Assembly (NCBI GenBank): GCA_949299565.1
Contig: OX437086.1
Coordinates: 880,099-944,098 of the forward strand
Length of the DNA: 64,000 nucleotides
Source of the DNA: an uncultured Bacillota bacterium
GTDB taxonomy: Bacteria > Bacillota_I > Bacilli_A > RFN20 > CAG-826
Direction of reading: 5' to 3'
In this document: positions 21,737 through 34,519 of the stretch, one piece after another
Position numbering within the stretch: the stretch's first letter is position 1
Layout: every line of letters starts with the position of its first letter
The notes under the pieces: model-generated
Told to the model about the DNA's origin: nothing
The model's database searches: none
Seen by the model: the letters and a program-made list of their open reading frames with translations, nothing else
Position numbers and translations under genes: made by a program

Positions 21737-22621
21737 ATGATTGATCAAAAACTCATCACCCTCTTGAAAGTCAACGAACTAGGAAGTTATACAGAGGCCG
21801 CGAAAGAATTAAATCTCACCCAGCCAGCCGTAAGTCTCCACTTAAAGAGCCTAGAAAAGGAAAGTGGTATTAAAATCTTCAACCGGACCTCAAACGGCAT
21901 CAAAGCCACAAAAGAAGGAGAAATTCTCATTAAATACGCGAAAAGGATCGCGTCTCTTTATAAGGAATTAGAGCTCAAATTAAAAGACAATGAAGAAAAC
22001 CAAAGAAGTTATTTGATCGGAATCACTCACACTTCCGAAAGCAATTTGATCATCGAAGTGCTCGCGACTTATGCTTATCTCCACCCGGAAGTCAAAATAA
22101 AAATAAAAACAGATGCCATAAAGAAACTTTATGAGAAACTCTCTTCTTATGAAATTGACTTAGCTTTTATCGACGGGAAACCGAATAAAAAATATTCTTC
22201 AATTCTTTTAGACACCGATACTTTAGTGGCCGTCCTCAATAAAAATAATCCCTTAGCCAAAAAAGGGTTGATCCAAGTTGAAGATTTGAAAAATGAAAAG
22301 ATGATTCTCCGCTCCTCCACTAGCGAAACGCGGAATCTCTTTCAAAGCGCTCTCAATAGCGATGGGCTTTCTCTCGAGGAATTTAATGTGATCATGGAGA
22401 TCGACAATATCGCGACAATCAAAGATCTCATCTCTGAAAATCCTTTTGTGTCCGTTCTCCCGAGAAGCGCTTGCTATGGACATGCTAAAGATTTAGCGAT
22501 CGTCCCGATTGAAAACCTCAACATGAGCCGCGAGGTGAATATCGTGTTCCCAAAGGATTTCTCTGATCGGAGATTCTTAAAAGAAATCACAAGCATCTAT
22601 CATCAAAAGATTGAGAGATAG
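21737..22621 (+). CDS. LysR-family transcriptional regulator
   Basis: N-terminal HTH (GSYTEAAKELNLTQPAVSLHLKSLE) plus substrate-binding domain; divergent from the antiporter gene; RBS AGGAGG; ends with TAG. Confidence 0.9.
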   Translation: MIDQKLITLLKVNELGSYTEAAKELNLTQPAVSLHLKSLEKESGIKIFNRTSNGIKATKEGEILIKYAKRIASLYKELELKLKDNEENQRSYLIGITHTSESNLIIEVLATYAYLHPEVKIKIKTDAIKKLYEKLSSYEIDLAFIDGKPNKKYSSILLDTDTLVAVLNKNNPLAKKGLIQVEDLKNEKMILRSSTSETRNLFQSALNSDGLSLEEFNVIMEIDNIATIKDLISENPFVSVLPRSACYGHAKDLAIVPIENLNMSREVNIVFPKDFSDRRFLKEITSIYHQKIER

Positions 22622-24307
22622 CTATTTAAGGGGTTTCTCGTACAAGGCAAACGTCGTGAGGTTTTTCTCTTTTAAATCTGTGGGATCATAATTTTTGCCG
22701 TTTTCTTGATAAATGTGGAGTCGATAATGCTTTGCCGCTTCTTCATTACAAATCGCGACTAAAATTGTTGAAGAATCAACATTCATCGATGAAACGATTT
22801 TCGCGGCTTCTGAGGTTGAATTGATTTCCTTTTTTAAGCGTTTCTCCAAGAAAATAGAACATTGTTTAAAAGCTTCGTTTTTCGATAAATAAAGCGTCTC
22901 CTTATCATAGATCATATTTCTATCAAGTTCGCGGTTGCTCGCTAAAACGTATCGAATCGGCTTAACGAGTTGCTCGACTTCCTTAAAAGATGAGAATTCG
23001 TTTTTCGGCTCTAAGTCTTCGTTATTGTTGCTGATTGGCACTAAAGCAAGATCTAGATAGCCGTTTTCCAAATATTTTCGTTCAGTCATGAAATCATCGA
23101 AATAGATTTTCTTGTAATCAGAATATTTAGAGGCAAGTTCTGTCCGAAAGGCCATATCTGTATTCGAATAAGGGTATCCGAAAATGCCAATTATTTTTTG
23201 TCCGGGTTTTCTGATCGAATAGAAGGAAGAAGAATAGTCTAGTAATTTTGCATCTTTCTCGCTGATCCGATAAAAACGGACGCGACCGCTCAATTTAGTG
23301 CCTCTTGAGAAGAACCAGCCATCCATCGTCGTAATCCCGTTTTTCCCGATCTGGCCAATGAATTGACAGTTCCCTTCAGCCCGATCACCGGAATTGTTTG
23401 AAACATTCGAGGAATAATGATAGAAGCCCTTCCCGACCATGTCATGCTCGTCAATCCCGAAAACAAAGGAATCCGCCGAGAAGAAAAGAATATCTTCTCC
23501 AACGAAATGACATTTCATCGAGAGCTGTTTCTTTTTATAAGAAATATCGACAATCCTAAGCCTTAAACCTTTCGGAACATAAGCAAGGCCGTCCTTCCGT
23601 TCTTCAAAAGAATAATAAATCCACTTCCCCGTAATCAACGAGTTGCGGTTATCTTCATCAAAGCCCGTCATCCCCAGCACGAGGTTTAAAACAACAACTA
23701 AGACCGTTCCTACCGCGGAATATATTTCTTCATTGGCCTCCGGCAAAAATTTAAAAAACGAGGAAAGGAATAAAAGAATCGTCAAAGTGATCGAAATTAA
23801 GGCAGAAACCAAACGCACGATGAAAGAGACCGTCACATGCGAACCGAAATAATTTTTGATGCGCATGATCAAAGAACGTCGATAATCATTCAATTTAAAT
23901 AGACGAAACTCGAGCATTTCAAAATCTTCATCATCCTCGTCGTATAAAAAGCTCAAGGCTTCCTCGTTATTCTCTTTCGAGAGAGCGTAATTTGAATAAC
24001 GCGAATTCACGAAACGGCTAAGCTTATCGATTTTTGCAACGAATAAGCCGATTTCGATGATTTGATCGATATTTAAACGGCTGATTAAAGAGAGGAAATC
24101 ATAATTTGGATGATTATCGATGGTTCGCGACGGAAGAAGCAAAAAATCAATCTCGCGTTTTTTTAAGCGCGCGACCATTTCTGATAAAGAAGCACATAAC
24201 ACAAGTTCAACTTCCTGCCCCTCAAAAAGTTTATGATTCATGAGGTTTGAAAGTAACACTTCTTTTTGAAGGGTTTCCGGTGTCTTTAAATATCCGACTT
24301 TCAGCAT
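22622..24307 (-). CDS. Membrane protein built from prephenate-dehydratase (PDT)-like domains, no ACT domain
   Basis: N-terminal about 100 aa resemble the PDT N-subdomain (VGYLKTPETL...ELVLCASLSEMVARLKKREIDFLLLP); two hydrophobic helices in the middle; C-terminal about 250 aa resemble a full PDT domain (IGIFGYPYSNTDMAF...LDLALVPISN...STSEAAKIVSS...NLTTFAL) with TTF where TRF is expected. Confidence 0.65.
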   Translation of the reverse strand: MLKVGYLKTPETLQKEVLLSNLMNHKLFEGQEVELVLCASLSEMVARLKKREIDFLLLPSRTIDNHPNYDFLSLISRLNIDQIIEIGLFVAKIDKLSRFVNSRYSNYALSKENNEEALSFLYDEDDEDFEMLEFRLFKLNDYRRSLIMRIKNYFGSHVTVSFIVRLVSALISITLTILLFLSSFFKFLPEANEEIYSAVGTVLVVVLNLVLGMTGFDEDNRNSLITGKWIYYSFEERKDGLAYVPKGLRLRIVDISYKKKQLSMKCHFVGEDILFFSADSFVFGIDEHDMVGKGFYHYSSNVSNNSGDRAEGNCQFIGQIGKNGITTMDGWFFSRGTKLSGRVRFYRISEKDAKLLDYSSSFYSIRKPGQKIIGIFGYPYSNTDMAFRTELASKYSDYKKIYFDDFMTERKYLENGYLDLALVPISNNNEDLEPKNEFSSFKEVEQLVKPIRYVLASNRELDRNMIYDKETLYLSKNEAFKQCSIFLEKRLKKEINSTSEAAKIVSSMNVDSSTILVAICNEEAAKHYRLHIYQENGKNYDPTDLKEKNLTTFALYEKPLK

Positions 24308-24339
24308 ATTGACATTATATACAAAGAAACTTCTTGTTT

Positions 24340-25008
24340 TTATCTTTTAAGGGTCAGGCGATAACTATTATCGATATAAGAATATATTTCTTCGTTCTTC
24401 ACCGTCCCGTTTAAGAGAACTGTAAACCAGTTCTTTTTATTCATGTGATAGGCTGGGAAATAATTATGATAGTCAAGTAAAGAAGATAAGCGTTCTGGTT
24501 CAATCCGTAAATCTAAAATCTCTAGGTTCTCTTCACCTAAAAGACCGATTTTCTTCTCTTTTACAGTTAATAACGCCGCGTACCACGTCTTTGTGTCCTT
24601 TCGCCTAAAAATTGCATTATTCGGGAACTTCTTCCAAAGATATTCCGGTTCATCGCCATATGTTCTTTTTATGTATTCAATTACGAGTTTTGTTTGTTCG
24701 CCTTTAAAGATTTCAGTCGCACAACAATTATTTATAAAGTTCTCGATTGCTGCGTTATAAGCTTCTCTGATTGAACCGATAAATTCTCCGATTGCTTTAG
24801 AGATTAAATGAAGAACATATTCTTCATTCGTGGCTTTTTCGCTTATCCTTACCCATAATTCATCTCCCTTTAAAACATAAAGTTCAAGAAGAAAACGGCC
24901 CCCTAATATCTCGCTTTTATAGGAATAGACGTTATCTAAATAACTAAAACCAAATGGTATAAGTCTCTCAGTGATTATCTTTTTGTTTATTAAGGGAATT
25001 TGCTTCAT
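24340..25008 (-). CDS. MmcQ/YjbR-family putative DNA-binding protein with N-terminal extension
   Basis: C-terminal half (WYAALLTV...LDLRIEP...PAYHMNKKNWFTV) matches my recollection of MmcQ/YjbR motifs. Confidence 0.6.
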   Translation of the reverse strand: MKQIPLINKKIITERLIPFGFSYLDNVYSYKSEILGGRFLLELYVLKGDELWVRISEKATNEEYVLHLISKAIGEFIGSIREAYNAAIENFINNCCATEIFKGEQTKLVIEYIKRTYGDEPEYLWKKFPNNAIFRRKDTKTWYAALLTVKEKKIGLLGEENLEILDLRIEPERLSSLLDYHNYFPAYHMNKKNWFTVLLNGTVKNEEIYSYIDNSYRLTLKR

Positions 25009-25452
25009 GTTTCTTTATCTTAAACATTAAGCCATAAGAGTTCCTTAATCATCAAAGAAAAAACATTTTGTGCGACTACTTTGTTATTATTCTGAGTTAT
25101 TACACAACAAGATTTAAAAAATGTCGAAAAGAAAAAAGAACTTTAATGCTATAAAAAATTTTTCCATTTTATTTCTCCTAACTCTTTCAATTTTTCAAAA
25201 GCGTTTGCATCTATTATTGTGTCTAACCACGGTCCGTTCCCTCCTTCGTCAAAAATGCCGTTGGTACGAAGGCTATCTAATTAAAGATGGCTGAGAGAAA
25301 TCTTCTATAAGCAATGATTTAGTTCTCAACAAGCATTATTAGTCGAATGCTTTTATTTATGCTTTTTCTTTTTTCATAAAAGTTAAACAACAACTCGATG
25401 TATTGAGCTTTTTAAAGATGACTAATTTTTTGATGAAACTTATTCGCGGTCG

Positions 25453-26247
25453 TCAAATATTGCTGATAATGTTAAATAATAAAACGAAAATCAAAACAAG
25501 AAACACTATGAGGCCAAATAAATAACCCATGGAATATGCTATATCGTTTTTCTTATTATTTTTATAACTCGTTTTTTTGCGTACTATTTTTTTATTTTTG
25601 GGAGATATACTGTTTTTTACAGTACCTTGCGTTTTATTGATATTTTTATGTTCAGACAAACGTTCCCAATGCCGCGCAGGGACGCATTTTTTTAAAGCAT
25701 TATACGCTTCTAGATGTTCATCAACTATTTTTCGACAAGCTATTTGATACCTATTAAAACTGGCCATTGGAATGGTTCCATCATAAAGAGAATCAATATC
25801 ATTAATGATCAAGTCGACGCCATTGTTATACATTCCTGTCTCATATTCTATCTTTAAATGTAAAATAAGATGCTCTAAAAGATTGCAGTAGGTTAAAACG
25901 TCAGGTTGGTGAAAGCTAATATATAACGATGAATAAGGTTTATTTGGACCAACATACAAATTCTCTTGCTTAGATAGTTGCGGGTATTTATTTTCAAGAT
26001 CATGATGAATTGAAAGTCCTTCTAACCCGCGCTTAATCGATTTGTTTTGTTTGAATGTATAATTTTTATCAACAATAAAATAAGAACCACTAACTTTCCC
26101 ATATTTGGTTTTAAGAGCTCTTAAGCATTGCTTATAGTTCAAATCACAATATAAATGCTGGAGAAATCTTTCATCTTTTTGAATTTTTTGATATTCAGCT
26201 TCCCCCAAACTTGAGTTTGCTGATTTAGATTCATTGGTTGATTCCAT
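25453..26247 (-). CDS. Hypothetical tail-anchored membrane protein (island gene)
   Basis: 264 aa; soluble N-terminal domain, Lys-rich linker and a single C-terminal TM helix; AT-rich codon usage like neighbouring island genes. Confidence 0.5.
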   Translation of the reverse strand: MESTNESKSANSSLGEAEYQKIQKDERFLQHLYCDLNYKQCLRALKTKYGKVSGSYFIVDKNYTFKQNKSIKRGLEGLSIHHDLENKYPQLSKQENLYVGPNKPYSSLYISFHQPDVLTYCNLLEHLILHLKIEYETGMYNNGVDLIINDIDSLYDGTIPMASFNRYQIACRKIVDEHLEAYNALKKCVPARHWERLSEHKNINKTQGTVKNSISPKNKKIVRKKTSYKNNKKNDIAYSMGYLFGLIVFLVLIFVLLFNIISNI

Positions 26248-26577
26248 ACTTAAATTATATGCTTAAGTTTTGCACAATAGCTTTTATTAAGAATTACTAT
26301 AAAACCAACTTTATAATATGCAACTAAAGATGCACTGCCATTAATTTCACCATAAAAATTATGACGAATATCAATTCAGAAAACGCAAAATGATTGATAT
26401 CGCTATTGCAGATGATGATAAAGTAGTCGTTCTTTTGTGTTTTTATATGTCTATGACTCAAAATATAGAAAAATTTTAGCTAAGAAAATAATAACAAAAA
26501 CTTTCATTGCCTTGTCACTGAAACTAATATCACCATATTTTTTAGGGAGTAGCACGCGTACAAATATGACGTAAATT

Positions 26578-28440
26578 TTACCTAATTTTTAGCATTTTCT
26601 TTATATGTTCATTCAAAGCTTTATCTTCGCAAAATATATAGCATCCTTTTTGCCCACGCGTTAATAGGGTGCGATAAGTGTTTTTGATGATAATATCGCA
26701 ATCTTTTTCGTGAAGCGGGTTATTCTTGTAGCCCTTTAGTGATTTGTCAGTTTTAGCTCTTGCATCTTTGTTTGTTAAAACATTACCGTGCCTATAGATT
26801 AGGTCTTTTCCAATAATCACACCAACGTGATCAAATTCAAGCCCCTGACACGTGTGAATGCAGCCTATTTGATCAAAAGAGTCCTTATCTATTGCCCAAG
26901 TCTTGGTGTTTGAAAAGTTCCACTGAGCTTTAAAATCGCTCCCTATTTGAATATCAAATTTTGTCAAATCATCACGACTTATCCAATCATAACAATAACC
27001 CGCAACAATTCTAGACTTATTGTTTATCTCGTTTTTCTTTCTCAGCTCTTCCCTCATTGCAGAAGGGCTATCGAAGACCTTTATATCATATTCCTTTCGG
27101 TCGAAACTAACATTCGCTGTAGGCCTAATTTCTAGCAAATTATCTAAAAAAGCTAAGTATGCGTCACTACCATTACATCTAAACTGAGATGTTAGCGTCA
27201 ACTCTTTTCCAAAATAGGCTTTTGAATCTAAAATTTTAGCCCATTTTTTAATTTCGTCTATTGAACCGATATCGCTGGAAGTAATTCTTTGATCCTCGTC
27301 AATAAAAAAGACGCTAACCTTCGCTGCGTTAATTATTTCTTTTATTTGGTTTTCGCCTTTGCCGTTAAAAATAGATTTTTTGTTCAAACGATGAGCTTCA
27401 TCGGCAATGATACAATCGAATTCGTTTTTAGTGGAGTCAACAAAAACACCACTGCCTTTAAATAAATTTTTAATATACGCTTTTTTAAAATCTCCACCTG
27501 CGAGTTTTTTATAATAAACTTCTCGTGGTGCACTATTCTTAGAAGTGTAGATAGCATTAAAACCATCGCGAATTAAACTCGACAGCATCTTGATTGCAAT
27601 CACAGATTTTCCAGTGCCAGGACCGCCTTGAACGATAATGGTATGTTTAGTGTCGGTTTTTAGACTCTCATTAATCGTTTTCAAAATAGTTTCATATGCT
27701 ACCTTTTGCTCATCCAATAGTTTAAAAGAATCATTTCCTTTAATTAACCTTTCGATTTCATCTTGTAAAGCAGTTGATGGTCTAATTTTTCCATTTTCAA
27801 TTTCGTATAAAATTTTTCCATCATCAGGATTAACAACATACTTCTTTATAAAATCAGCCAGTTTTTTTCGATCCCTTTGTAGAAAAAGCGGAGCCTCTTT
27901 TATTATAGTTCGATAGCGCTCATCTTCGATTTTATATCGATTTGATTCATTGAAATTATGAAGAAAGGCGCAAGGAATCATTCGAATATTCTTTTTTTGA
28001 ATAGATTCGTTAAAATTCTCGATAGTTTTCGCATAACTATATGCTTGATATGATGGGTGTGCCTCTTCTCTATATGCTCTTGCGACATAGGTTATTACTA
28101 TATCCTTCTTGTCGCTTAGTTCTATATCTTCCCATTGCTTAAGTTCTATGATGACTGCGTTGCTTTTGCCGTGATCGTCTCTACCTGTGATTATAAAATC
28201 AATTCTTTTCGATGTTAGAGGAATTTGAAGTTCTATTGCGACGTTTAAATTTCTATTTATTCCAAAAGATTCATCAAAAACTCCATCAATCTGCGGCAAC
28301 GAGTTCTCAAAGGCACGATGTTCCCTTGGATTATTATGCGTGAGTCCTTGCTTGCGAAACCCATCCTCGATTCGATCAGCAATGACGCCATTTATAATGT
28401 CTTCATGAAATTTGCTTACGATGCTAGAGTAGATTATCAT
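26578..28440 (-). CDS. PD-(D/E)xK nuclease-like N-terminal domain fused to a DUF2075/SF1-helicase-like P-loop ATPase
   Basis: N-terminal IDFIITG ... AVIIELKQW (D ... E-x-K); Walker A VQGGPGTGKSV; Walker B/DEAH-like CIIADEAHRL; motifs SQFRCNG and CQGLEFDHVGVIIG; start ATG overlaps the MazG-like stop (ATGA). Confidence 0.8.
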   Translation of the reverse strand: MIIYSSIVSKFHEDIINGVIADRIEDGFRKQGLTHNNPREHRAFENSLPQIDGVFDESFGINRNLNVAIELQIPLTSKRIDFIITGRDDHGKSNAVIIELKQWEDIELSDKKDIVITYVARAYREEAHPSYQAYSYAKTIENFNESIQKKNIRMIPCAFLHNFNESNRYKIEDERYRTIIKEAPLFLQRDRKKLADFIKKYVVNPDDGKILYEIENGKIRPSTALQDEIERLIKGNDSFKLLDEQKVAYETILKTINESLKTDTKHTIIVQGGPGTGKSVIAIKMLSSLIRDGFNAIYTSKNSAPREVYYKKLAGGDFKKAYIKNLFKGSGVFVDSTKNEFDCIIADEAHRLNKKSIFNGKGENQIKEIINAAKVSVFFIDEDQRITSSDIGSIDEIKKWAKILDSKAYFGKELTLTSQFRCNGSDAYLAFLDNLLEIRPTANVSFDRKEYDIKVFDSPSAMREELRKKNEINNKSRIVAGYCYDWISRDDLTKFDIQIGSDFKAQWNFSNTKTWAIDKDSFDQIGCIHTCQGLEFDHVGVIIGKDLIYRHGNVLTNKDARAKTDKSLKGYKNNPLHEKDCDIIIKNTYRTLLTRGQKGCYIFCEDKALNEHIKKMLKIR

Positions 28441-28763
28441 AACTTATCATATTTAAGAGATTTTGATTTGCATTTTTCAATAGGATATTTTCTTTTCGTT
28501 TTTTCAAGTTTATCTAAAACAATTTTATTGATATCAAGATTCAAGACTTGCGCCATTTGAATACAATAATTAATTACATCGGCAAGCTCGTCTTTTACAT
28601 CATTTGAGTTGAAGTTTTTCTCATCCCATTGAAAACACTCAAGAAGTTCGTTGGCTTCAATGGAAATAGATTTAGCTAAATTAGCGGGTGTATGAAATTT
28701 GTTCCAATCTCTCTCGTCAACGAATTTTTTAATTTCCGCTTGCAATAAATCTAGTTTATCCAT
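28437..28763 (-). CDS. MazG-like nucleoside-triphosphate pyrophosphohydrolase (small all-alpha type)
   Basis: 108 aa with the EExxE-type metal-binding segment (SIEANELLECFQWDE, DELADV); translationally coupled to the nuclease-helicase gene. Confidence 0.75.
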   Translation of the reverse strand: MDKLDLLQAEIKKFVDERDWNKFHTPANLAKSISIEANELLECFQWDEKNFNSNDVKDELADVINYCIQMAQVLNLDINKIVLDKLEKTKRKYPIEKCKSKSLKYDKL

Positions 28764-28858
28764 GATTTTATTTTATCATTGTTAAAGATTAAAAAACTAA
28801 AGAAATGTTCGGCACTGCTTTTCAGTATCGGAGTATCAAAATAACCACTTCAATATTG

Positions 28859-28879
28859 CTTAACTTTTTAAAAGTTAAG
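28859..28879 (-). promoter_or_regulatory. 21-bp near-perfect palindrome upstream of the MazG-like/nuclease-helicase operon (candidate operator)
   Basis: CTTAAC-TTTTTAAAA-GTTAAG, about 100 nt upstream of the MazG-like start; AT-rich, so not a convincing terminator. Confidence 0.3.
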
Positions 28880-29088
28880 AAGCTACATGGTACTAGAATC
28901 GCCTCACATTCTTGTCTGAATCATTTGCATAGCCGTAACATCTGCCGTCGAAATGCTCAAATTGTTCCAAATCATGAGTAACCTCAATACCCTCTAGCAA
29001 AGAAGGCAACAAACCAAAGCAAACAACCCTGTTGCAATAAGTTTGGCAGCTAACAACAAAAAACTCAGTCCTATAACTCAGTAATCGA

Positions 29089-29769
29089 TTATTCAACCAT
29101 AAGAGTTCCAATGAATTGACCAACATTTGACCCTAGTTCTTCTTTAAGATCATATAAATCTTCACAAAATTCTTGTTCATTCTTGATTGCAATTTTAATT
29201 TTGTCTTTATAAATTGCGAAGTCCAAATTGCGCTTATTGTGATGGAAAAAATTTTCAACCTGTAATTCTAAGTATCTTTTAGAATTCTCTTTACAATTTT
29301 CAAGCATCTTTTTCCTATCTAAATTGAAAATTTTATCGTCATGCATTAACAAAAATAATTCAAATGTCGGATTTGAAATACAAAGCTTGTATCCTTTTTC
29401 ACAACATAATTTTAAATAAGTATCATATTGCTCCGATTTAAAATTCTGAGGATCACGATCAAAAACGAATACTGCAATATCAACATCCTTATCATAATTA
29501 ATTTTGCCTTCTTTTACTGAGTCCTCAAAATTATTGATTTTACGTTTTAAATGACTTTGACCAACTTCGTCTTCCTCGTTTTCAATAATAGTAAGCTTTA
29601 TAAGTTTGTTTAGATGAAGACATTCGCTATTGTTTTTTAAGCCTTCAAAATATCTTATTTCAGTTACATCGCCCTCCGAAACAATAAAACAGAATTTATT
29701 AAACTCTCTATTATTTCTTTTTCTATCATAATTACTTTTGCTGCCAAGTTCTCTCATCAAACACCTCAT
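29089..29769 (-). CDS. RloB-like protein (AbiLii-like partner of the upstream ATPase)
   Basis: Motifs CFIVSEGDVTEIRYF and CISNPTFELFLLMH match my recollection of the RloB family; start overlaps the ATPase stop (TAATG). Confidence 0.7.
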   Translation of the reverse strand: MRCLMRELGSKSNYDRKRNNREFNKFCFIVSEGDVTEIRYFEGLKNNSECLHLNKLIKLTIIENEEDEVGQSHLKRKINNFEDSVKEGKINYDKDVDIAVFVFDRDPQNFKSEQYDTYLKLCCEKGYKLCISNPTFELFLLMHDDKIFNLDRKKMLENCKENSKRYLELQVENFFHHNKRNLDFAIYKDKIKIAIKNEQEFCEDLYDLKEELGSNVGQFIGTLMVE

Positions 29770-31112
29770 TAAGCGAAGTAATTATTAAAATTAGGAATTC
29801 CACCATATCGTCCATCTAGATAGGCCTTATCAACTTTTTTATCAAATCTTTCGCCAAATTCTTCAAGCGAATATACTGTGGTTGGTCCATTATTTTTTCT
29901 TTCACAAAACCAAATCTCATCCCTTCTCAAAAGATCCAAATCCAATAAACGAGTTTCATGTGTAGTTACAACTAATTGAGAATTTGATGTTTTAGAAAAG
30001 AAAGACTTAATAAATTCGAAAGAAAGATCTGGATGAAAACATCTATTAAGTTCATCAATAAAATAAACTTTCTCAGAATGATCATCCATTAAAACTTGAA
30101 TCAAATCAAATAACCTTTGAGTACCATCGCTCTCTTCATCAAATTCATATAACCCGTCGTCATTTCTGTGCTGAAAAGTTATTTTCTTTAGTTGATAAGA
30201 GTTATCTTTTTTGCCGAGAAAGTAAATATTGTTATTGAGCCTTATATTAACTTGCGGATTGGTCTTTTTATTCTTAGAAGCATTAAACTGTTCAAATTGA
30301 TTGAGTAAATCATTAAATATAACAGGAGGCAATTTATTTTGAAGTTCTTCAAGTGGACAATCGACCAATTTGCATTCTGATATACCAGTTCCAAACTTTG
30401 AAATTAAAGCATTTATCTCATTAATTTTCTGGTTAGAAATGAAAAATTTAGAGTTGTCTAAAGACATATTTGGGAAAATAACAACCAACGAATTAGAAAA
30501 CCAATTAAATATTTTTTTAAAAATCATTACACTATTATTTGCGTTTTCTTCATATAAAGTGTCCTTGTTGGTATTCATCAATGTTAAAAACAAAATATTG
30601 TCCTGATTTTTAATATCAGAGTAATAAATATTAAGCCTATTTAAAATATCTTCTTCAAAATAATTTTTGCTTAACTTTATTCCGCCATTTGTGACTCTTT
30701 TAAAAATCAAAATATCTTTCTCATCAGGACCAAGTTCATACAGCCATTCGGCCTTAATGCTATTTTTAGAGAGTAATATATCAAAACCATAGGTATATAT
30801 CTTATTATCAATTTCAAACTCAAAATCAAAAGTAGAAATTTTATCTTTATTCTCTTTTTTTCCTCTGTAATAACAACTCGACCAATTAATTCTAATGCCT
30901 TCTAAAACTACTCTTTTGAAAAAGGCAACAGCCTTAATTAAATTTGATTTCCCAGAAGCGTTTGCTCCGTATAATTCAGCAAATTTAAGTATTTTCAATT
31001 TGCCCTTATTAACACAATGATCAACTTTCTTTTTAGGAGCTCCAGCCACCATCGATATTGTTTGCTTTGAGTCAAATGATAAAAAATTCGATATGGTATA
31101 GCTAATTAGCAT
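29769..31112 (-). CDS. AAA/ABC-type ATPase (AbiLi-like, AAA_21-type)
   Basis: Walker A GANASGKSN near N-terminus; split-ATPase C-terminal motifs DEESDGTQR, Walker B VYFIDELNRCFHP, TTHE; RBS AGAGGAGG upstream. Confidence 0.8.
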   Translation of the reverse strand: MLISYTISNFLSFDSKQTISMVAGAPKKKVDHCVNKGKLKILKFAELYGANASGKSNLIKAVAFFKRVVLEGIRINWSSCYYRGKKENKDKISTFDFEFEIDNKIYTYGFDILLSKNSIKAEWLYELGPDEKDILIFKRVTNGGIKLSKNYFEEDILNRLNIYYSDIKNQDNILFLTLMNTNKDTLYEENANNSVMIFKKIFNWFSNSLVVIFPNMSLDNSKFFISNQKINEINALISKFGTGISECKLVDCPLEELQNKLPPVIFNDLLNQFEQFNASKNKKTNPQVNIRLNNNIYFLGKKDNSYQLKKITFQHRNDDGLYEFDEESDGTQRLFDLIQVLMDDHSEKVYFIDELNRCFHPDLSFEFIKSFFSKTSNSQLVVTTHETRLLDLDLLRRDEIWFCERKNNGPTTVYSLEEFGERFDKKVDKAYLDGRYGGIPNFNNYFA

Positions 31113-31134
31113 GGCTTACCTCCTCTTTGGTTAG

Positions 31135-31227
31135 ATTATAAGTGAAATTATCACTTGCAACAATCTTATTGAGTAATAAATTAACCTTATTTTGAAAATA
31201 TTTTATAAATTAAGGTGAAATTTTCAC
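31135..31227 (-). promoter_or_regulatory. Promoter of the AbiL-like operon with two palindromic operator-like sites
   Basis: Minus-strand reads GTGAAAATTTCAC (31215-31227, perfect 6-bp arms) ... TTGCAA-GTGATAATTTCAC (31142-31154)-T-TATAAT (31135-31140), then RBS and ATG at 31112; the second palindrome lies between the -35-like and -10 hexamers. Confidence 0.4.
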
Positions 31228-31302
31228 ATTGATTTAAAAGTATCGCCATGTTTTTTATTCTAAATAAGGTATTAAGACAATCAATTAAACCGCCACTGTA
31301 TT

Positions 31303-31328
31303 AAATAAAACAGCACCATTAAGTGCTG
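31303..31328 (-). terminator. Candidate Rho-independent terminator after gene 31426..32202
   Basis: Minus-strand hairpin CAGCAC-ttaatg-GTGCTG followed by TTTTATTT; stem is only 6 bp. Confidence 0.35.
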
Positions 31329-31425
31329 AAATTTGAGAATGTCTTTGTGTTATCGATTTAATACAAAACGATACCCCCTGTTAGAAAAATGACACCATTA
31401 TAAAGTGTTTATTTTGTTTGGCTTT

Positions 31426-32202
31426 TTACTTTCTCCTTCTCTTTCTTGTCGTTTTTTTCGATTTTTCTAAGCCTAATTTCCAAAGCCCCATATCCAAAAG
31501 TTTCATTTGTGGATATTCAATTGATGGGAGGTCTTTTAAAGTTAAAGTTTCCATCTTTTTTCTAATCTTTTTTTTATTTTTTGAATAGAAATCGACTAGC
31601 GCTTCGAATGAATTTTTACCGAATCTTTGAACTAATTCTTTTTCTCCGCATTCCTCTTTTCCAAATTTTAGTGCTCCTTTTAGCATCTCATCGTAAGCAG
31701 GAACGCATCCTAATGTTCCTAAGAGAATCTTCGTAACTAGAATGTCCGAAATAGCTTGATTAGTTGACTCGTCTTCGTTCCTAGCTTCTCTTCTAAAACG
31801 CTCATATTCTTTCTTAATTGAATTTATTAGTCCTTCATTACCTTCACTACCGAAGAGTAGATCTAAATTTGAAGAGTAGTTCTTATCACCTTTGTCCCAG
31901 CAATAGCCAATTAAAGGTTTATATTTATCATTGAGAATTAATTTGACGGTTTGAAGATGAACTTTGTAATCAAATTGCAACAGAAAAGATGATCCACGGT
32001 ACATTCCCCATGATGCAAGATAAAAAGCAAGGTGCAATGACAAATTCAAGTAATCATCTTCATTTAATTCGTTCAATTTATCGAATGCTTCATGAAATTT
32101 ACCATAACAATATTCCCAAGACAAATATCTAGAATTTGCATTGCTATCTATCTCTCTCTTAAACTTATTAAAAGATTTAATAAATTCATTAATAAATTTC
32201 AT
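31426..32202 (-). CDS. Hypothetical protein (island gene, basic C-terminal tail)
   Basis: 258 aa ORF with AT-rich codon usage; no family recognised; ends in a Lys/Arg-rich tail. Confidence 0.5.
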   Translation of the reverse strand: MKFINEFIKSFNKFKREIDSNANSRYLSWEYCYGKFHEAFDKLNELNEDDYLNLSLHLAFYLASWGMYRGSSFLLQFDYKVHLQTVKLILNDKYKPLIGYCWDKGDKNYSSNLDLLFGSEGNEGLINSIKKEYERFRREARNEDESTNQAISDILVTKILLGTLGCVPAYDEMLKGALKFGKEECGEKELVQRFGKNSFEALVDFYSKNKKKIRKKMETLTLKDLPSIEYPQMKLLDMGLWKLGLEKSKKTTRKRRRK

Positions 32203-32324
32203 ATCTATGCCTCCCTATATTTTTCAAAGAATTTATCTTCACCTGCTCTTCTAGCTTTAATAACATCTATTTTATATTTGAATCTGCCGAGCAAATGTGA
32301 TCTGTGTTGAAATATAATTTGAGC

Positions 32325-32650
32325 TACCTATAGTCTTCGCTCCCTATCGTAATGAACGCCTGTGATGTCTGATGTGTTGCTTTTTTGGAATTTCCAATAG
32401 TTCTTTTGTTTTTCTTATAGGCAAAGCTAACCACTGTCAGTCTACCGAATTTTTGACCAATCAAGTCCCTCACCATGAAACGACTTCAACCGCTAAATTT
32501 GACCTGGCCAGTATGGAGCATGTTGACATTGAATTCTACCTCTTTTTCACAAACGCAACGTCATTTATAAATCTTTGTGGAATGATGCTTCTTCCCAGTA
32601 TCTTCGATCACAGTCAGATAGACATAGCGTTTCCCAATTTCAATATTCAT
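32325..32650 (-). pseudogene. Decayed gene fragments sharing an N-terminal G-x-K/R-F/Y-G-R-L-T-V motif
   Basis: Minus-strand short ORFs MNIEIGKRYVYLTVIEDTGKK (stops after 29 aa, with a Cys-containing continuation in another frame) and MVRDLIGQKFGRLTVVSFAYKK (50 aa, 32325..32477); GC content differs from flanks. Confidence 0.3.
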
Positions 32651-32765
32651 TTGCTTTGTAACCAATCAATAAATTTATAAACAAAATTGAAACCAAAAAA
32701 ACGAAAATAAAAGGATGGTTGTCGCCCACCACCCCAATTCAATCAAAGGAGGTTCTCATAGAACC

Positions 32766-33755
32766 TTAATCTTGTCTACTTACCTCCTTATCCAGGTTTT
32801 TAGCTAGCTTTGTGAAGATATAGCTATATTTCACATAGGTCTTTCCACCAAAGTCTTTGTTGTTTGTCGTTCTAATGCCATAAGGATTGAAGTTAAAGTC
32901 CTGCTCTTCCAAATCATCCTTGGCATCAGTGTTTTCGACAACGAGTTCACTGATATAAAGATTATTGGTTGGATGACCAAAATAGGAATTGATATCCCTC
33001 AAATTGACGTTTTGATAGTACTCATCAGCGGTTTTGCTATATGCAACATTGAAATAGATATCAAATGCATAAAGATAACCCATCGGCACAAAGTAATGCG
33101 ACAGATAAGTGTTGATGAGTAGACACTTATCAAGCAAATCCTGAATCAGTGACTTCAATCCGACATCGTAGCTTCTAATGACAACAAGATGGCTTTGAGC
33201 ACTAGAAGGCATGAACATTGAATAACCACTCTCCTTGGAGAAGACATTAACGTTTTCCGTGTCGAAGACCTCTCTTATGAAGTCGAATATTGCACTGGTC
33301 TTGACGAGCCTTAAATCAATAAGAATCTCACCACAGAACTTCTGCTTCTTCGATGCCTTCACGAACTGATTGAAAAGCCTGACTCCATATGCAGAATCAA
33401 AAAGTGTAGGCTGATTCACTTTATCGCTACCATTGGTTTGGTTGACGATTTCATAGTGGTTTTCAACTTTCACGACCTTGAATGATTGGCCGTTTGCGTT
33501 AAAGCAGATCTTATCGGCTTTTTCATCGTTGGTCAGAATATGGCAACAAACCAAGTTGTAATCCGCTGTTTTTCCTCCTTTTGACTGAGGATAGATGTGG
33601 TCGAGGTTCCATCCGTATTCGCTGTTGCGATTATCGTAGGCGGACTTAGCCATCGTCCTTCCAGCGAAATCCACAGCCCTGGTCTGCTTCCCGTACCTTG
33701 ACGTCCACAAACGCATTGCAGTTTCTCTGTTAACAATCATTTTTTCATTTTTCAT
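32766..33755 (-). CDS. HNH-nuclease-domain protein with unassigned C-terminal domain
   Basis: N-terminal GWNLDHIYPQSKGGKTADYNLVCCHILTN fits the HNH signature (D-H-x-x-P, N-L, Cys pair); the C-terminal about 230 aa has no motif I recognise. Confidence 0.65.
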   Translation of the reverse strand: MKNEKMIVNRETAMRLWTSRYGKQTRAVDFAGRTMAKSAYDNRNSEYGWNLDHIYPQSKGGKTADYNLVCCHILTNDEKADKICFNANGQSFKVVKVENHYEIVNQTNGSDKVNQPTLFDSAYGVRLFNQFVKASKKQKFCGEILIDLRLVKTSAIFDFIREVFDTENVNVFSKESGYSMFMPSSAQSHLVVIRSYDVGLKSLIQDLLDKCLLINTYLSHYFVPMGYLYAFDIYFNVAYSKTADEYYQNVNLRDINSYFGHPTNNLYISELVVENTDAKDDLEEQDFNFNPYGIRTTNNKDFGGKTYVKYSYIFTKLAKNLDKEVSRQD

Positions 33756-34445
33756 AATTTAATCTTTCAACAAGAAAAAAACTATGAGGTTGACCTCCTT
33801 TCATAAGGAGACGAATGCAATGATTGACTATAGGGCGACCTACTGCTGATACCTCGAAGGGTAGTTCTCTTAACAGCTTTGACAGAAAACTTTATCAATC
33901 AGCTCTAACTAAAGAGCTGTTAGATTCGTTCCTTACGTACTAATTATAACCGATGGAAACTATTAAAAAACGAAAATCTTGTGAATGCAAAAAAATGATA
34001 ACATTAGTCAAATTATTGCAATCAGCGCATAAAGTGTGAACTCTTAAATCTTTTTGATAAAACTTTTAGTCTATTTTGACTTTCTCATTGTTAAACCACG
34101 ACTTCGGAGGAAAATGCTCAAAAGATAAAGTTTTTTTCTAAACAAATATGACAAGTCCCAAAATGATTATTCTTTATTGTTTTCATACTAATATTTTAGC
34201 GTCATAAACTATGCAACCTAATCGTTTCTCTACTAGGCGTATCACATTTTCCTAGGGTATCTTTTTCTAGTAGCCTTAGCGTTCATCTAGTAGAGTTCTA
34301 TTTTGCTAGTAGCCTTAAACCACCTTTCGATTCCTTGGAGGTTTCGAACTTTAACTAGGAAAACTACTTAAAAAAATGCCCGATTTCTCGGACAAATATC
34401 GTTAATTTTGACACCCTTACTTTGTATCAAAATTTAGTTATAAGA

Positions 34446-34519
34446 TGGCAGGGGCTGAAGGAATCGAACCCTCATCAAAGGTTTTGGAGACCTCTGTTCT
34501 ACCATTGAACCAAGCCCCT
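34446..34519 (-). tRNA. tRNA-Trp (anticodon CCA)
   Basis: 74-nt cloverleaf folded by hand: acceptor AGGGGCT/AGCCCCT, D-stem GTTC/GAAC, anticodon stem GAGGT/ACCTT with loop CTCCAAA, T-arm GAGGG-TTCGATT-CCTTC, discriminator G and encoded CCA. Confidence 0.9.

What the first reader, a model, noticed from the sequence alone, without database searches (positions are those of the whole stretch)
22622..24307. Membrane protein assembled from prephenate-dehydratase-like domains without an ACT domain
A PDT N-subdomain-like segment, then two hydrophobic helices and an uncharacterised middle region, then a complete PDT-like domain that ends TTF where canonical PheA has TRF. PDT domains have a periplasmic-binding-protein fold, so this may be a sensor or transport-associated protein and not a biosynthetic enzyme. 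I have not seen this architecture described. It lies convergent to a LysR regulator gene.
Basis: partly seen in the sequence, partly recalled or inferred. Interest (0 to 1): 0.5.

Follow-up and report, generated by a model that had tools for sequence, protein, structure and literature searches.

The report
Cap15-like membrane effector flanked by PDT domains
The gene is real and encodes a rare, undescribed protein whose core looks like a bacterial anti-phage membrane-disrupting module (two membrane helices plus a small beta-barrel, as in Cap15), fused on both sides to ligand-binding domains borrowed from a phenylalanine-synthesis enzyme.

Summary
ORF 22622-24307 (-) encodes a 561-aa protein. 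Its C-terminal domain is a PDT domain (Pfam E=7e-15) ending NLTTF, and it has no ACT domain. It has two hydrophobic helices and an N-terminal segment homologous to the first PDT subdomain (hhalign P=8e-7).

A wider family exists with the layout complete PDT-2TM-barrel, about 410 aa. The window protein is a derived form: its N-terminal PDT is truncated and a second PDT has been added.

Both soluble parts are predicted to be cytoplasmic. No neighbouring gene is conserved between lineages. The gene borders a strain-variable defence island, and one relative overlaps a TIR gene, but many relatives sit among housekeeping genes.

Best reading (about 0.45): a stand-alone, ligand-gated, Cap15-like membrane effector, probably for defence, that uses PDT-like domains as sensors. 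Sequence-level membership of the Cap15 family is not shown. A new variant of a known kind.

The parts
22622..24307 (-). Whole ORF, 561 aa: PDTa-like half domain, 2TM hairpin, beta-barrel, then a PDT-like domain
24023..24307 (-). aa 1-95: N-terminal segment homologous to the first (a) subdomain of PDT
   Evidence: hhalign against a canonical PDT profile gives Prob 91.7%, P=7.7e-7. Against the protein's own C-terminal PDT, P=1.6e-3 in register. AF2 shows a beta-alpha-beta fold.
23927..24022 (-). aa 96-127: acidic, poorly conserved linker predicted to be disordered. It stands where PDT subdomain b would be.
   Evidence: pLDDT <50 for aa 96-127. No invariant columns.
23873..23926 (-). aa 128-145: return strand ...LEFRLFKLN. 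It is the counterpart of the N-x-T-E/R-F strand that closes a PDT domain, but the catalytic Thr is replaced by Leu/Ile/Val.
   Evidence: Strand at aa 129-139 in the model. The motif is shared with the 410-aa family ending NxTEFRxYK.
23666..23845 (-). aa 155-214: two-pass transmembrane hairpin with a short acidic outer loop (KFLPEANEE). Predicted N-in/C-in.
   Evidence: Hydropathy and charge counts across the family. Long helices at aa 158-186 and 193-214 in the models.
23261..23641 (-). aa 223-349: eight-stranded beta-barrel, the most conserved part (G227, W229, Y231, R251, Y296, G312, G330, G341, R347). Cap15-like.
23198..23260 (-). aa 350-370: short helix and a flexible linker
   Evidence: helix at aa 350-358; aa 361-366 low pLDDT
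22637..23197 (-). aa 371-557: complete PDT-like (type-2 PBP fold) domain without ACT
   Evidence: Pfam PF00800 E=6.8e-15. PDB profile hits 2qmx and 4lub. Foldseek on 6vh5 E=6e-11.
22649..22663 (-). aa 549-553: NLTTF, the counterpart of N-x-T-R-F. Thr and Phe are kept, Arg is lost.
24340..25008 (-). Upstream co-directional gene (32-bp gap) encoding a YjbR-domain protein. It is conserved only in the sister strain and is not a family-wide partner.
21737..22621 (+). Convergent LysR-family regulator gene whose stop codon abuts the ORF's stop. Lineage-specific neighbour.
25009..34519 (.). Context: a low-GC, strain-variable defence island bounded by tRNA-Trp. It is not part of the protein but bears on its interpretation.

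Best explanation
The gene encodes a cytoplasm-facing, membrane-inserted sensor-effector.

Shown:
- Its core is a two-pass TM hairpin followed directly by an eight-stranded beta-barrel. This has the layout and fold of the S-2TMbeta/Cap15 effectors.
- A complete PDT-like (type-2 PBP, 'Venus flytrap') domain follows the barrel.
- A truncated PDT copy precedes the TM hairpin. It lacks subdomain b and the catalytic Thr.

From the literature: S-2TMbeta/Cap15 effectors disrupt the inner membrane when their oligomeric state is switched by a ligand bound to the barrel.

Inferred mechanism:
- The complete PDT-like domain has lost the Arg of TRF and the Glu of IENS but keeps the cleft residues Asn, Gln, Thr and Phe. 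It binds a small anionic or aromatic metabolite or signal.
- The barrel has conserved Trp, Tyr and Arg residues and may bind a second ligand.
- Ligand-dependent opening or closing, together with the dimerising tendency of PDT domains, controls clustering of the TM hairpins. That clustering permeabilises the membrane.
- No synthase partner is conserved, so the protein would act alone.
- The likeliest role is a single-gene abortive-infection or stress-suicide device in uncultured gut Bacilli.
For: - Same order as Cap15/OptE: TM hairpin, then barrel. The family is described in PMC12657218.
- Weak sequence signal in register. Pfam Cap15_CD_rec hits 2 of 34 relatives (best E=0.04, profile positions 58-122 of 122), and SLATT 2TM models also appear. 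hhalign against an OptE profile gives P=0.013 over the last four strands. The shared motif is G[WY][FY]xxRxTxxGR[VI]RFx[RQ]I.
- The barrel is the most conserved region: 0.76 mean column identity and 39 invariant columns.
- Cytoplasmic topology.
- The module recurs as PDT-2TM-barrel in about 20 further clusters.
- Accessory-gene behaviour. It occurs in 10 of 185,579 species genomes. Copies are broken in L024 and L077. No neighbour is conserved between lineages.
- Defence context in several lineages. The window and L001 flank a tRNA-Trp island whose defence cargo differs between strains. R-M genes lie next to P0009. A DEAD/MZB giant helicase lies next to P0160. A TIR_2 gene overlaps P0161 by 4 bp.
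Against: - The window protein has no Pfam Cap15_CD_rec or PADLOC effector hit.
- hhalign against OptE is not significant.
- In 12 further loci the neighbours are mostly housekeeping genes (rpsB, tsf, frr, uppS, dxr, smpB, RNase R, clpP), with few defence hits.
- The gene's GC content (0.39) is host-like, unlike the adjacent island at 0.28-0.35.
- It is not found on phage or plasmid records or on viral contigs.
- No nucleotide synthase is adjacent, and none is among the 25 of 42 Pfam families listed for the window.
- No ligand or activity has been tested.
Confidence: 0.45

Rival explanations
1. A membrane-anchored but genuine prephenate or arogenate dehydratase. In this reading the 2TM-barrel module replaces the ACT domain as the regulatory or localising element, so the protein is a biosynthetic enzyme of unusual architecture.
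For: - PDT Pfam hits are above threshold and very strong in the 410-aa relatives, E about 1e-40.
- Most columns that are at least 80% conserved in canonical PDTs are kept. These include the Asn of ENS, the Gln-Cys, the S-T-S, and the Thr and Phe of TRF.
- Many loci lie among housekeeping genes.
- The gene's GC content is host-like.
Against: - The TRF triad is described as critical for catalysis (PMC13217925). The Arg is basic in 39 of 49 canonical sequences but is Thr, Glu or Val here, and Glu in 18 of 20 members of the 410-aa family. The Glu of IENS is also lost.
- The score is 35 bits against the 219-bit NCBIfam equivalog cut-off.
- The N-terminal copy lacks subdomain b and the catalytic Thr.
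- The barrel, not the PDT, is the most conserved part.
- The family occurs in 10 of 185,579 species, and some copies are pseudogenes. That is too sporadic for a core enzyme.
Confidence: 0.15
2. A non-lethal metabolite-gated channel or sensor for aromatic-acid homeostasis or stress, roughly the first reader's 'sensor or transport-associated' idea. The PDT cleft would sense a cytoplasmic metabolite and the TM hairpin would form a regulated conductance or anchor.
For: - PBP-fold domains are classic ligand sensors. Foldseek also hits LysR/OxyR effector domains and SBPs.
- Topology and domain order are compatible.
- Housekeeping neighbourhoods.
- A Na+/H+ exchanger and a LysR gene lie nearby in the window.
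Against: - No conserved transporter, kinase, GGDEF or HTH partner or fused output domain.
- The window's LysR and exchanger neighbours are lineage-specific.
- A two-helix hairpin is a weak basis for a selective channel.
- The known proteins with this 2TM-barrel layout are cell-killing effectors.
- The sporadic distribution and pseudogenes fit a costly accessory gene.
Confidence: 0.2
3. A receptor-effector of a multi-gene signalling defence system (Thoeris- or CBASS-like). Its signal synthase would be encoded elsewhere in the genome, with the barrel binding a nucleotide-derived signal as in Cap15.
For: - Cap15-like barrel.
- One 410-aa relative is translationally coupled to a TIR_2 gene in two independent assemblies.
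- TM-containing Thoeris effectors are diverse (10.64898/2025.12.03.692087).
Against: - The TIR partner is found only in L011/L012 among roughly 30 loci.
- No cyclase, TIR, CD-NTase or mCpol gene is adjacent in the window or in other loci.
- The Thoeris survey paper does not mention a PDT or PBP effector.
Confidence: 0.15
4. An annotation or assembly artefact: two or three genes fused by a sequencing error, or a decaying pseudogene.
For: Unusual architecture. Two relatives (L024, L077) are fragmented.
Against: - The same uninterrupted architecture appears in about 20 clusters from independent assemblies.
- An identical protein appears in a second sample.
- Conservation runs end to end.
Confidence: 0.02

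Closest known systems
Cap15 (CBASS effector; S-2TMbeta family, Pfam PF18153 Cap15_CD_rec; PDB 7n34)
   Different: - No significant sequence match: the best relative scores 14.7 bits against a 31.2 cut-off.
- No CD-NTase operon.
- Cap15 is about 200 aa with nothing else attached. This protein carries PDT-like domains on both sides.
OptE of the Panoptes system (mCpol + S-2TMbeta; PMC12657218)
   Same: Same 2TM-barrel layout. It shares a C-terminal strand motif: GYYYTDRKTVGRIRFRQI against GWFFSRGTKLSGRVRFYRI. It shows that such effectors can be held off by a ligand and fire when the ligand is lost.
   Different: hhalign gives only P=0.013-0.065. OptE depends on an adjacent mCpol synthase (one search shows such an operon), and none is present here.
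Prephenate dehydratase / PheA (PF00800; e.g. 2qmx, 6vh5)
   Same: The C-terminal domain is a bona fide homologue with the two-subdomain PBP-like fold. It keeps the conserved Asn, Gln-Cys, S-T-S, and the Thr and Phe.
   Different: - No ACT domain.
- The Arg of TRF and the Glu of IENS are lost.
- Well below equivalog scores.
- Fused to a membrane module.
- A second, truncated copy is present.
GqqA (PDT homologue with quorum-quenching acylase activity; 7am0)
   Same: It is among the top Foldseek hits. It is a precedent for a PDT-fold protein recruited to a role beyond phenylalanine synthesis (PMC8192741).
   Different: GqqA is soluble and retains an ACT-like C-terminus. It has no TM or barrel.
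2TM-sensor effectors of signalling defence systems (Cap14 2TM-SAVED, 2TM-CARF, type II Thoeris 2TM-Macro, SLATT)
   Same: The logic is the same: a cytoplasmic ligand-binding domain coupled to a two-helix membrane-perturbing element.
   Different: The sensor here is a PDT/PBP-fold domain plus a barrel, which is not reported for these systems in the literature searched. There is usually no synthase partner.

Membership tests
Prephenate dehydratase (PheA-type enzyme, PF00800 / NCBIfam PRK11898) | PDT catalytic domain detectable above the Pfam gathering score | tested here: met
   55.8 bits against 25.2, aa 373-539
Prephenate dehydratase (PheA-type enzyme, PF00800 / NCBIfam PRK11898) | Score at equivalog level (NCBIfam PRK11898 cut-off 219 bits) | tested here: not met
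   35.4 bits
Prephenate dehydratase (PheA-type enzyme, PF00800 / NCBIfam PRK11898) | Intact T-R-F catalytic triad | tested here: not met
   The motif is T551-T552-F553. Across the 561-aa family the Arg position is T/K/E/V, whereas it is R or K in 39 of 49 canonical sequences. The importance of TRF is stated in PMC13217925.
Prephenate dehydratase (PheA-type enzyme, PF00800 / NCBIfam PRK11898) | C-terminal ACT regulatory domain (GALV/ESRP motifs) | tested here: not met
   No ACT hit at E<=10. The protein ends 8 residues after the TTF strand.
Prephenate dehydratase (PheA-type enzyme, PF00800 / NCBIfam PRK11898) | Dehydratase activity on prephenate, and a shikimate pathway in the genome | not testable with these tools
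   Only 64 kb of the genome is available and there are no enzyme assays. No shikimate-pathway family appears among the 25 of 42 Pfam families listed for the window.
S-2TMbeta / Cap15 effector family (PF18153) | Two-pass TM element directly fused N-terminal to the barrel | tested here: met
   Hydropathy and AF2 helices at aa 158-186 and 193-214; the barrel starts at aa 227.
S-2TMbeta / Cap15 effector family (PF18153) | Minimal eight-stranded beta-barrel with the Cap15 fold | tested here: met
S-2TMbeta / Cap15 effector family (PF18153) | Sequence match to PF18153 at the gathering score (31.2 bits) | tested here: not met
   No hit for the window protein. Two of 34 relatives hit at E about 0.04 (14.7 bits), in register. 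The positive control OptE scores 70.5 bits.
S-2TMbeta / Cap15 effector family (PF18153) | Profile-profile homology to a bona fide member (OptE) | tested here: inconclusive
   hhalign P=0.065 against a single sequence and P=0.013 against a 3-sequence profile. The alignment is in register over the last four strands.
S-2TMbeta / Cap15 effector family (PF18153) | Operon linkage to a nucleotide synthase (CD-NTase or mCpol) | tested here: not met
   No such neighbour in the window or in about 30 related loci.
S-2TMbeta / Cap15 effector family (PF18153) | Nucleotide binding by the barrel and ligand-controlled membrane disruption | not testable with these tools
   Needs biochemistry. Conserved W229, Y231, R251, Y296 and R347 are compatible with it.
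Thoeris-type system effector | Adjacent signalling TIR (ThsB-like) gene | tested here: not met
   Absent from the window. Present only for the 410-aa relative in L011/L012.
Extracytoplasmic type-2 periplasmic-binding-protein sensor | Binding domain exported (signal peptide or lipobox, or placed in an outer loop) | tested here: not met
   No N-terminal signal sequence. The flanks are K/R-rich, the inter-helix loop is 3-15 residues and acidic, and both PDT parts are on the N-in/C-in side.

The most novel reading that the evidence does not exclude
The PDT-2TM-barrel proteins, including this doubled-PDT form, are a previously unrecognised class of single-polypeptide immune or suicide devices. A domain recruited from aromatic-amino-acid biosynthesis would act as the sensor. 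It might read a host metabolite whose level changes on phage takeover, a phage-made small molecule or, in the TIR-linked members, a TIR product. It would directly gate a Cap15-like membrane-disrupting module without any dedicated nucleotide synthase.
Probability: 0.3. Interest if true: 0.8.

Novelty: new variant of a known kind. Interest (0 to 1): 0.6.

Why it matters
Cap15/S-2TMbeta effectors are so far known only as receivers of signals made by a partner cyclase (CBASS, Panoptes). A stand-alone version wired to a PBP-fold domain taken from a metabolic enzyme would show a new way to trigger this membrane-killing module. It would also show a new fate for the PDT fold.

The system is directly testable. 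It has two soluble ligand-binding domains and one toxic output. The natural series runs from a 190-aa PDT alone, to the 410-aa PDT-2TM-barrel, to the 560-615-aa forms with a second PDT. That series can reveal how sensor domains are grafted onto effectors.

If the protein instead proves to be an active membrane-bound dehydratase, it would be a new regulatory solution replacing the ACT domain.

Tried and rejected
- Pfam on the isolated N-terminal 157 aa gave no hit. Homology was shown only by profile-profile comparison.
- A PDB sequence search with the 2TM-barrel profile gave nothing at E<=10.
- Foldseek on the barrel sub-model gave only weak generic barrel hits and no Cap15. The full-model Foldseek run was dominated by PDT/PBP hits.
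- The afdb50 fold library was unavailable.
With A4 it keyed on a PDT motif and returned mostly ordinary PDTs.
- The search for homologous proteins with the 2TM-barrel alignment A6 returned nothing at all, not even family members. This was probably a retrieval failure.
- Viral contigs, phage records and plasmid records gave no relative.
- A conserved operon partner was sought by all-against-all clustering of neighbours in 25 and then 64 more loci. None was found beyond close synteny.
- TIR linkage is limited to L011/L012.
- A tRNA or other cause for the contig breaks about 650 bp upstream in L002 and L015-L018 was looked for. No tRNA was found.
- The promoter and terminator scan was uninformative, with fewer hits than in shuffles.
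- Cluster look-up gave no organism names for the 561-aa family.
Full report
**Observation**

The window holds an uninterrupted 561-codon ORF on the minus strand at 22622-24307.
- Pfam finds one family, PDT (PF00800), E=6.8e-15, aa 373-539, and no ACT domain even at E<=10.
- NCBIfam's PheA equivalogs score only 35 and 19 bits against cut-offs of 219 and 577.
- A profile of the family hits the solved dehydratases 2qmx, 4lub and 6vh5. Foldseek on the full AF2 model returns PDT structures first (6vh5, E=6e-11), then LysR/OxyR effector domains and solute-binding proteins.
- The convergent LysR gene at 21737-22621 is real and its stop codon abuts the ORF's stop.

**The N-terminal segment**

On its own, aa 1-157 hits nothing in Pfam. 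The evidence for PDT ancestry is as follows.
- The family profile of aa 1-145 aligns to a profile of 49 canonical PDT domains over aa 2-95, with hhalign probability 91.7% and P=7.7e-7.
- It aligns to the protein's own C-terminal PDT in register at P=1.6e-3.
- HMMs of either half cross-hit the other half in several relatives.
- AF2 (mean pLDDT 76) gives aa 1-94 a beta-alpha-beta subdomain, then a disordered acidic stretch (aa 96-127, pLDDT<50), then a strand at aa 129-139.
- That strand, LEFRLFK, matches the ...N-x-T-E-F-R-x-Y-K strand that closes the complete PDT domain of the 410-aa relatives. It lies the same short distance before the first TM helix.

The N-terminal module is therefore a PDT whose subdomain b has been replaced by a linker and whose catalytic Thr is Leu, Ile or Val. 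It cannot form a cleft or catalyse.

**The family**

- A 5.8-billion-protein search finds only 11 clusters, all full length, at 31-60% identity.
- An exhaustive profile search of 1.84 billion representatives adds about 10 more clusters of the same 560-590-aa type.
- It also finds three 556-615-aa proteins with a fuller N-terminal PDT-like part.
- It also finds about 20 clusters of 405-430-aa proteins that are a complete PDT (Pfam E about 1e-40) followed by the same 2TM and beta-rich module, with no C-terminal PDT.
- NCBI calls one of these simply 'prephenate dehydratase domain-containing protein'.
- The defining unit is thus PDT-2TM-barrel. The window protein is a derived form with a decayed first PDT and an added second one.
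- Within the 561-aa family the middle domain is by far the most conserved: 0.76 mean column identity and 39 of 75 invariant columns, against 0.55-0.57 for both PDT parts.

**The middle region**

- A sub-model of aa 140-368, built on a 34-sequence alignment spanning both families, reaches pLDDT 86.6 and pTM 0.78. It shows two long helices, eight antiparallel strands and a short helix.
[quoted passage not shown] They disrupt the inner membrane when ligand binding changes their oligomeric state (PMC12657218).
- The order TM-TM-barrel is the same here.

Sequence support is weak but consistent.
- Pfam Cap15_CD_rec hits 2 of 34 relatives (best E=0.04). The hit covers profile positions 58-122 of 122, ending exactly at the barrel's end. 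The OptE positive control scores 2e-19.
- SLATT 2TM models also surface weakly.
- hhalign of the family against OptE gives P=0.065, improving to P=0.013 with a three-sequence OptE profile, in register over the last four strands.
- Against this, Foldseek did not retrieve Cap15 and gave no hit better than E=4.6e-3. The window protein itself has no Cap15 or PADLOC effector hit.

I therefore call the module Cap15-like in fold and layout. I do not claim proven family membership.

**Topology**

- There is no signal peptide.
- The 15 residues before TM1 and after TM2 are K/R-rich across the family.
- The inter-helix loop is 3-15 residues and acidic or neutral.
- Both PDT parts and the barrel are therefore on the cytoplasmic side, which argues against external, PBP-style sensing.

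**State of the PDT cleft**

- Of the columns that are at least 80% conserved in canonical PDTs, most are retained. These include the Asn of ENS, S-H, Q-C, S-T-S, and N-x-T-x-F.
- The Arg of TRF is basic in 39 of 49 canonical sequences. It is T, K, E or V in the 561-aa family and Glu in 18 of 20 of the 410-aa family.
- The Glu of IENS is present in 39 of 49 canonical sequences. It becomes K or S, or K/Q/R.
- TRF is described as critical for catalysis (PMC13217925).
- The cleft looks preserved as a binding site but chemically altered. Catalysis is uncertain.

**Genomic context**

- All-against-all clustering of neighbours in 25 loci, plus the seven PDT-2TM-barrel loci recovered by the metagenome scan, finds no partner conserved between lineages.
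- In the window the gene follows a YjbR-domain gene by 32 bp and borders a 9.4-kb low-GC island (0.28-0.35 against 0.395 for the window) that ends at tRNA-Trp.
- That island carries a Schlafen/DUF2075-type helicase (PADLOC PDC-S41, AbiO and Nhi hits), an RloB plus AAA_21 pair and an HNH-like gene.
- A second sample has the identical protein and the same flanks, but a different island: DndB, a D12 methylase and T5orf172.
- Other relatives lie next to R-M genes or a 1,566-aa DEAD/MZB helicase. In two assemblies a TIR_2 gene overlaps the relative by 4 bp.
- In 12 further loci the neighbours are mainly housekeeping genes with few defence hits.
- The gene's own GC content is host-like.
- No relative is found on viral contigs, phage records or plasmid records.
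- The family is in 10 of 185,579 species genomes, all uncultured gut Bacilli MAGs.
- Two copies are broken into fragments.

**Interpretation**

Shown:
- The architecture and the PDT homologies.
- The Cap15-like fold and layout.
- The cytoplasmic topology.
- The lack of a conserved partner.

Inferred:
- The protein is a stand-alone ligand-gated membrane effector.
- The PDT-like cleft, and perhaps the Trp/Tyr/Arg-rich barrel, binds a small molecule.
- PDT-type dimerisation or closure controls clustering of the TM hairpins.

I put this at about 0.45. A defensive role is the likeliest setting but rests on mixed context evidence. The rivals are:
- a membrane-bound active dehydratase (0.15);
- a non-lethal metabolite sensor or channel (0.2);
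- a receptor of a distally encoded signalling system (0.15);
- an artefact (0.02).

**Novelty**

No paper in the searchable library combines prephenate dehydratase with 2TM or CBASS. A systematic survey of TIR-linked effectors does not mention PDT or PBP domains. I rate this a new variant of a known kind: an S-2TMbeta-like effector with a new sensor and no synthase.

Noticed in passing
window 25009-34519: A strain-variable, low-GC (0.28-0.35) defence island lies between the YjbR gene and tRNA-Trp (34446-34519). It carries a Schlafen/DUF2075-type helicase at 26578-28440 (PADLOC PDC-S41, AbiO and Nhi hits), RloB at 29089-29769 with AAA_21 at 29769-31112, an HNH-like ORF at 32766-33755, and unknown ORFs of 264 and 258 aa. 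In the sister sample L001 the same slot holds DndB, a D12 methylase, a type I S-subunit fragment and T5orf172.
   Followed up: partly
L011 9221-9874 and L012 9221-9874: A 217-aa TIR_2 protein with a Cys-rich C-terminal tail overlaps the stop of a 407-aa PDT-2TM-barrel gene by 4 bp. A Metallophos gene follows. This could be a new Thoeris-like pair. It was not seen in any other locus.
   Followed up: partly
L031-L046 (e.g. L031 9980-10558): Stand-alone, ACT-less PDT-domain proteins of 181-192 aa end right after ...NATEFRLFK. They are the closest PDT relatives (up to 49% identity) of the PDT in the 410-aa family and have no conserved neighbours.
   Followed up: partly
L024 9923-11668; L077 9989-11210: One 561-type copy and one 410-type copy are split into three or four short ORFs. 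These are apparent pseudogenes, which suggests the gene is dispensable or costly.
   Followed up: no
L002, L003, L004, L015-L018 (gene starts 100-700 bp from a contig end): In seven assemblies of related species the contig ends just upstream of the gene. This hints at a repeat or hypervariable region there. No tRNA was found in the stubs.
   Followed up: partly
window 24308-24345: A TGnTATAAT-like element (TTTGTATATAATG) sits about 7 nt upstream of the ATG and there is no Shine-Dalgarno sequence. This could mean a leaderless or very short-leader transcript, or co-transcription with the YjbR gene 32 bp upstream.
   Followed up: no
window 16704-19679: A 991-aa predicted lipoprotein has a long Ser/Asp/Glu-rich linker and no Pfam match. 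It lies next to a Big-like surface protein (14871-16526).
   Followed up: no
L047, L049, L051, L063, L064: Proteins of 438-448 aa carry a PDT domain at the C-terminus (aa about 252-435) after an unidentified N-terminal region of about 250 aa. This is another non-canonical PDT architecture in metagenomes.
   Followed up: no
L090 1133-2115 (Sulfitobacter plasmid NZ_CP072616.1): A Panoptes-like mCpol plus OptE-like pair lies next to a DncV-like CD-NTase gene on a conjugative plasmid. It was retrieved only as a comparison sequence.
   Followed up: no
P0050 (899 aa): A protein has eight evenly spaced 40-residue repeats that weakly match barrel positions 106-145 of the family profile. The match is probably spurious.
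   Followed up: no
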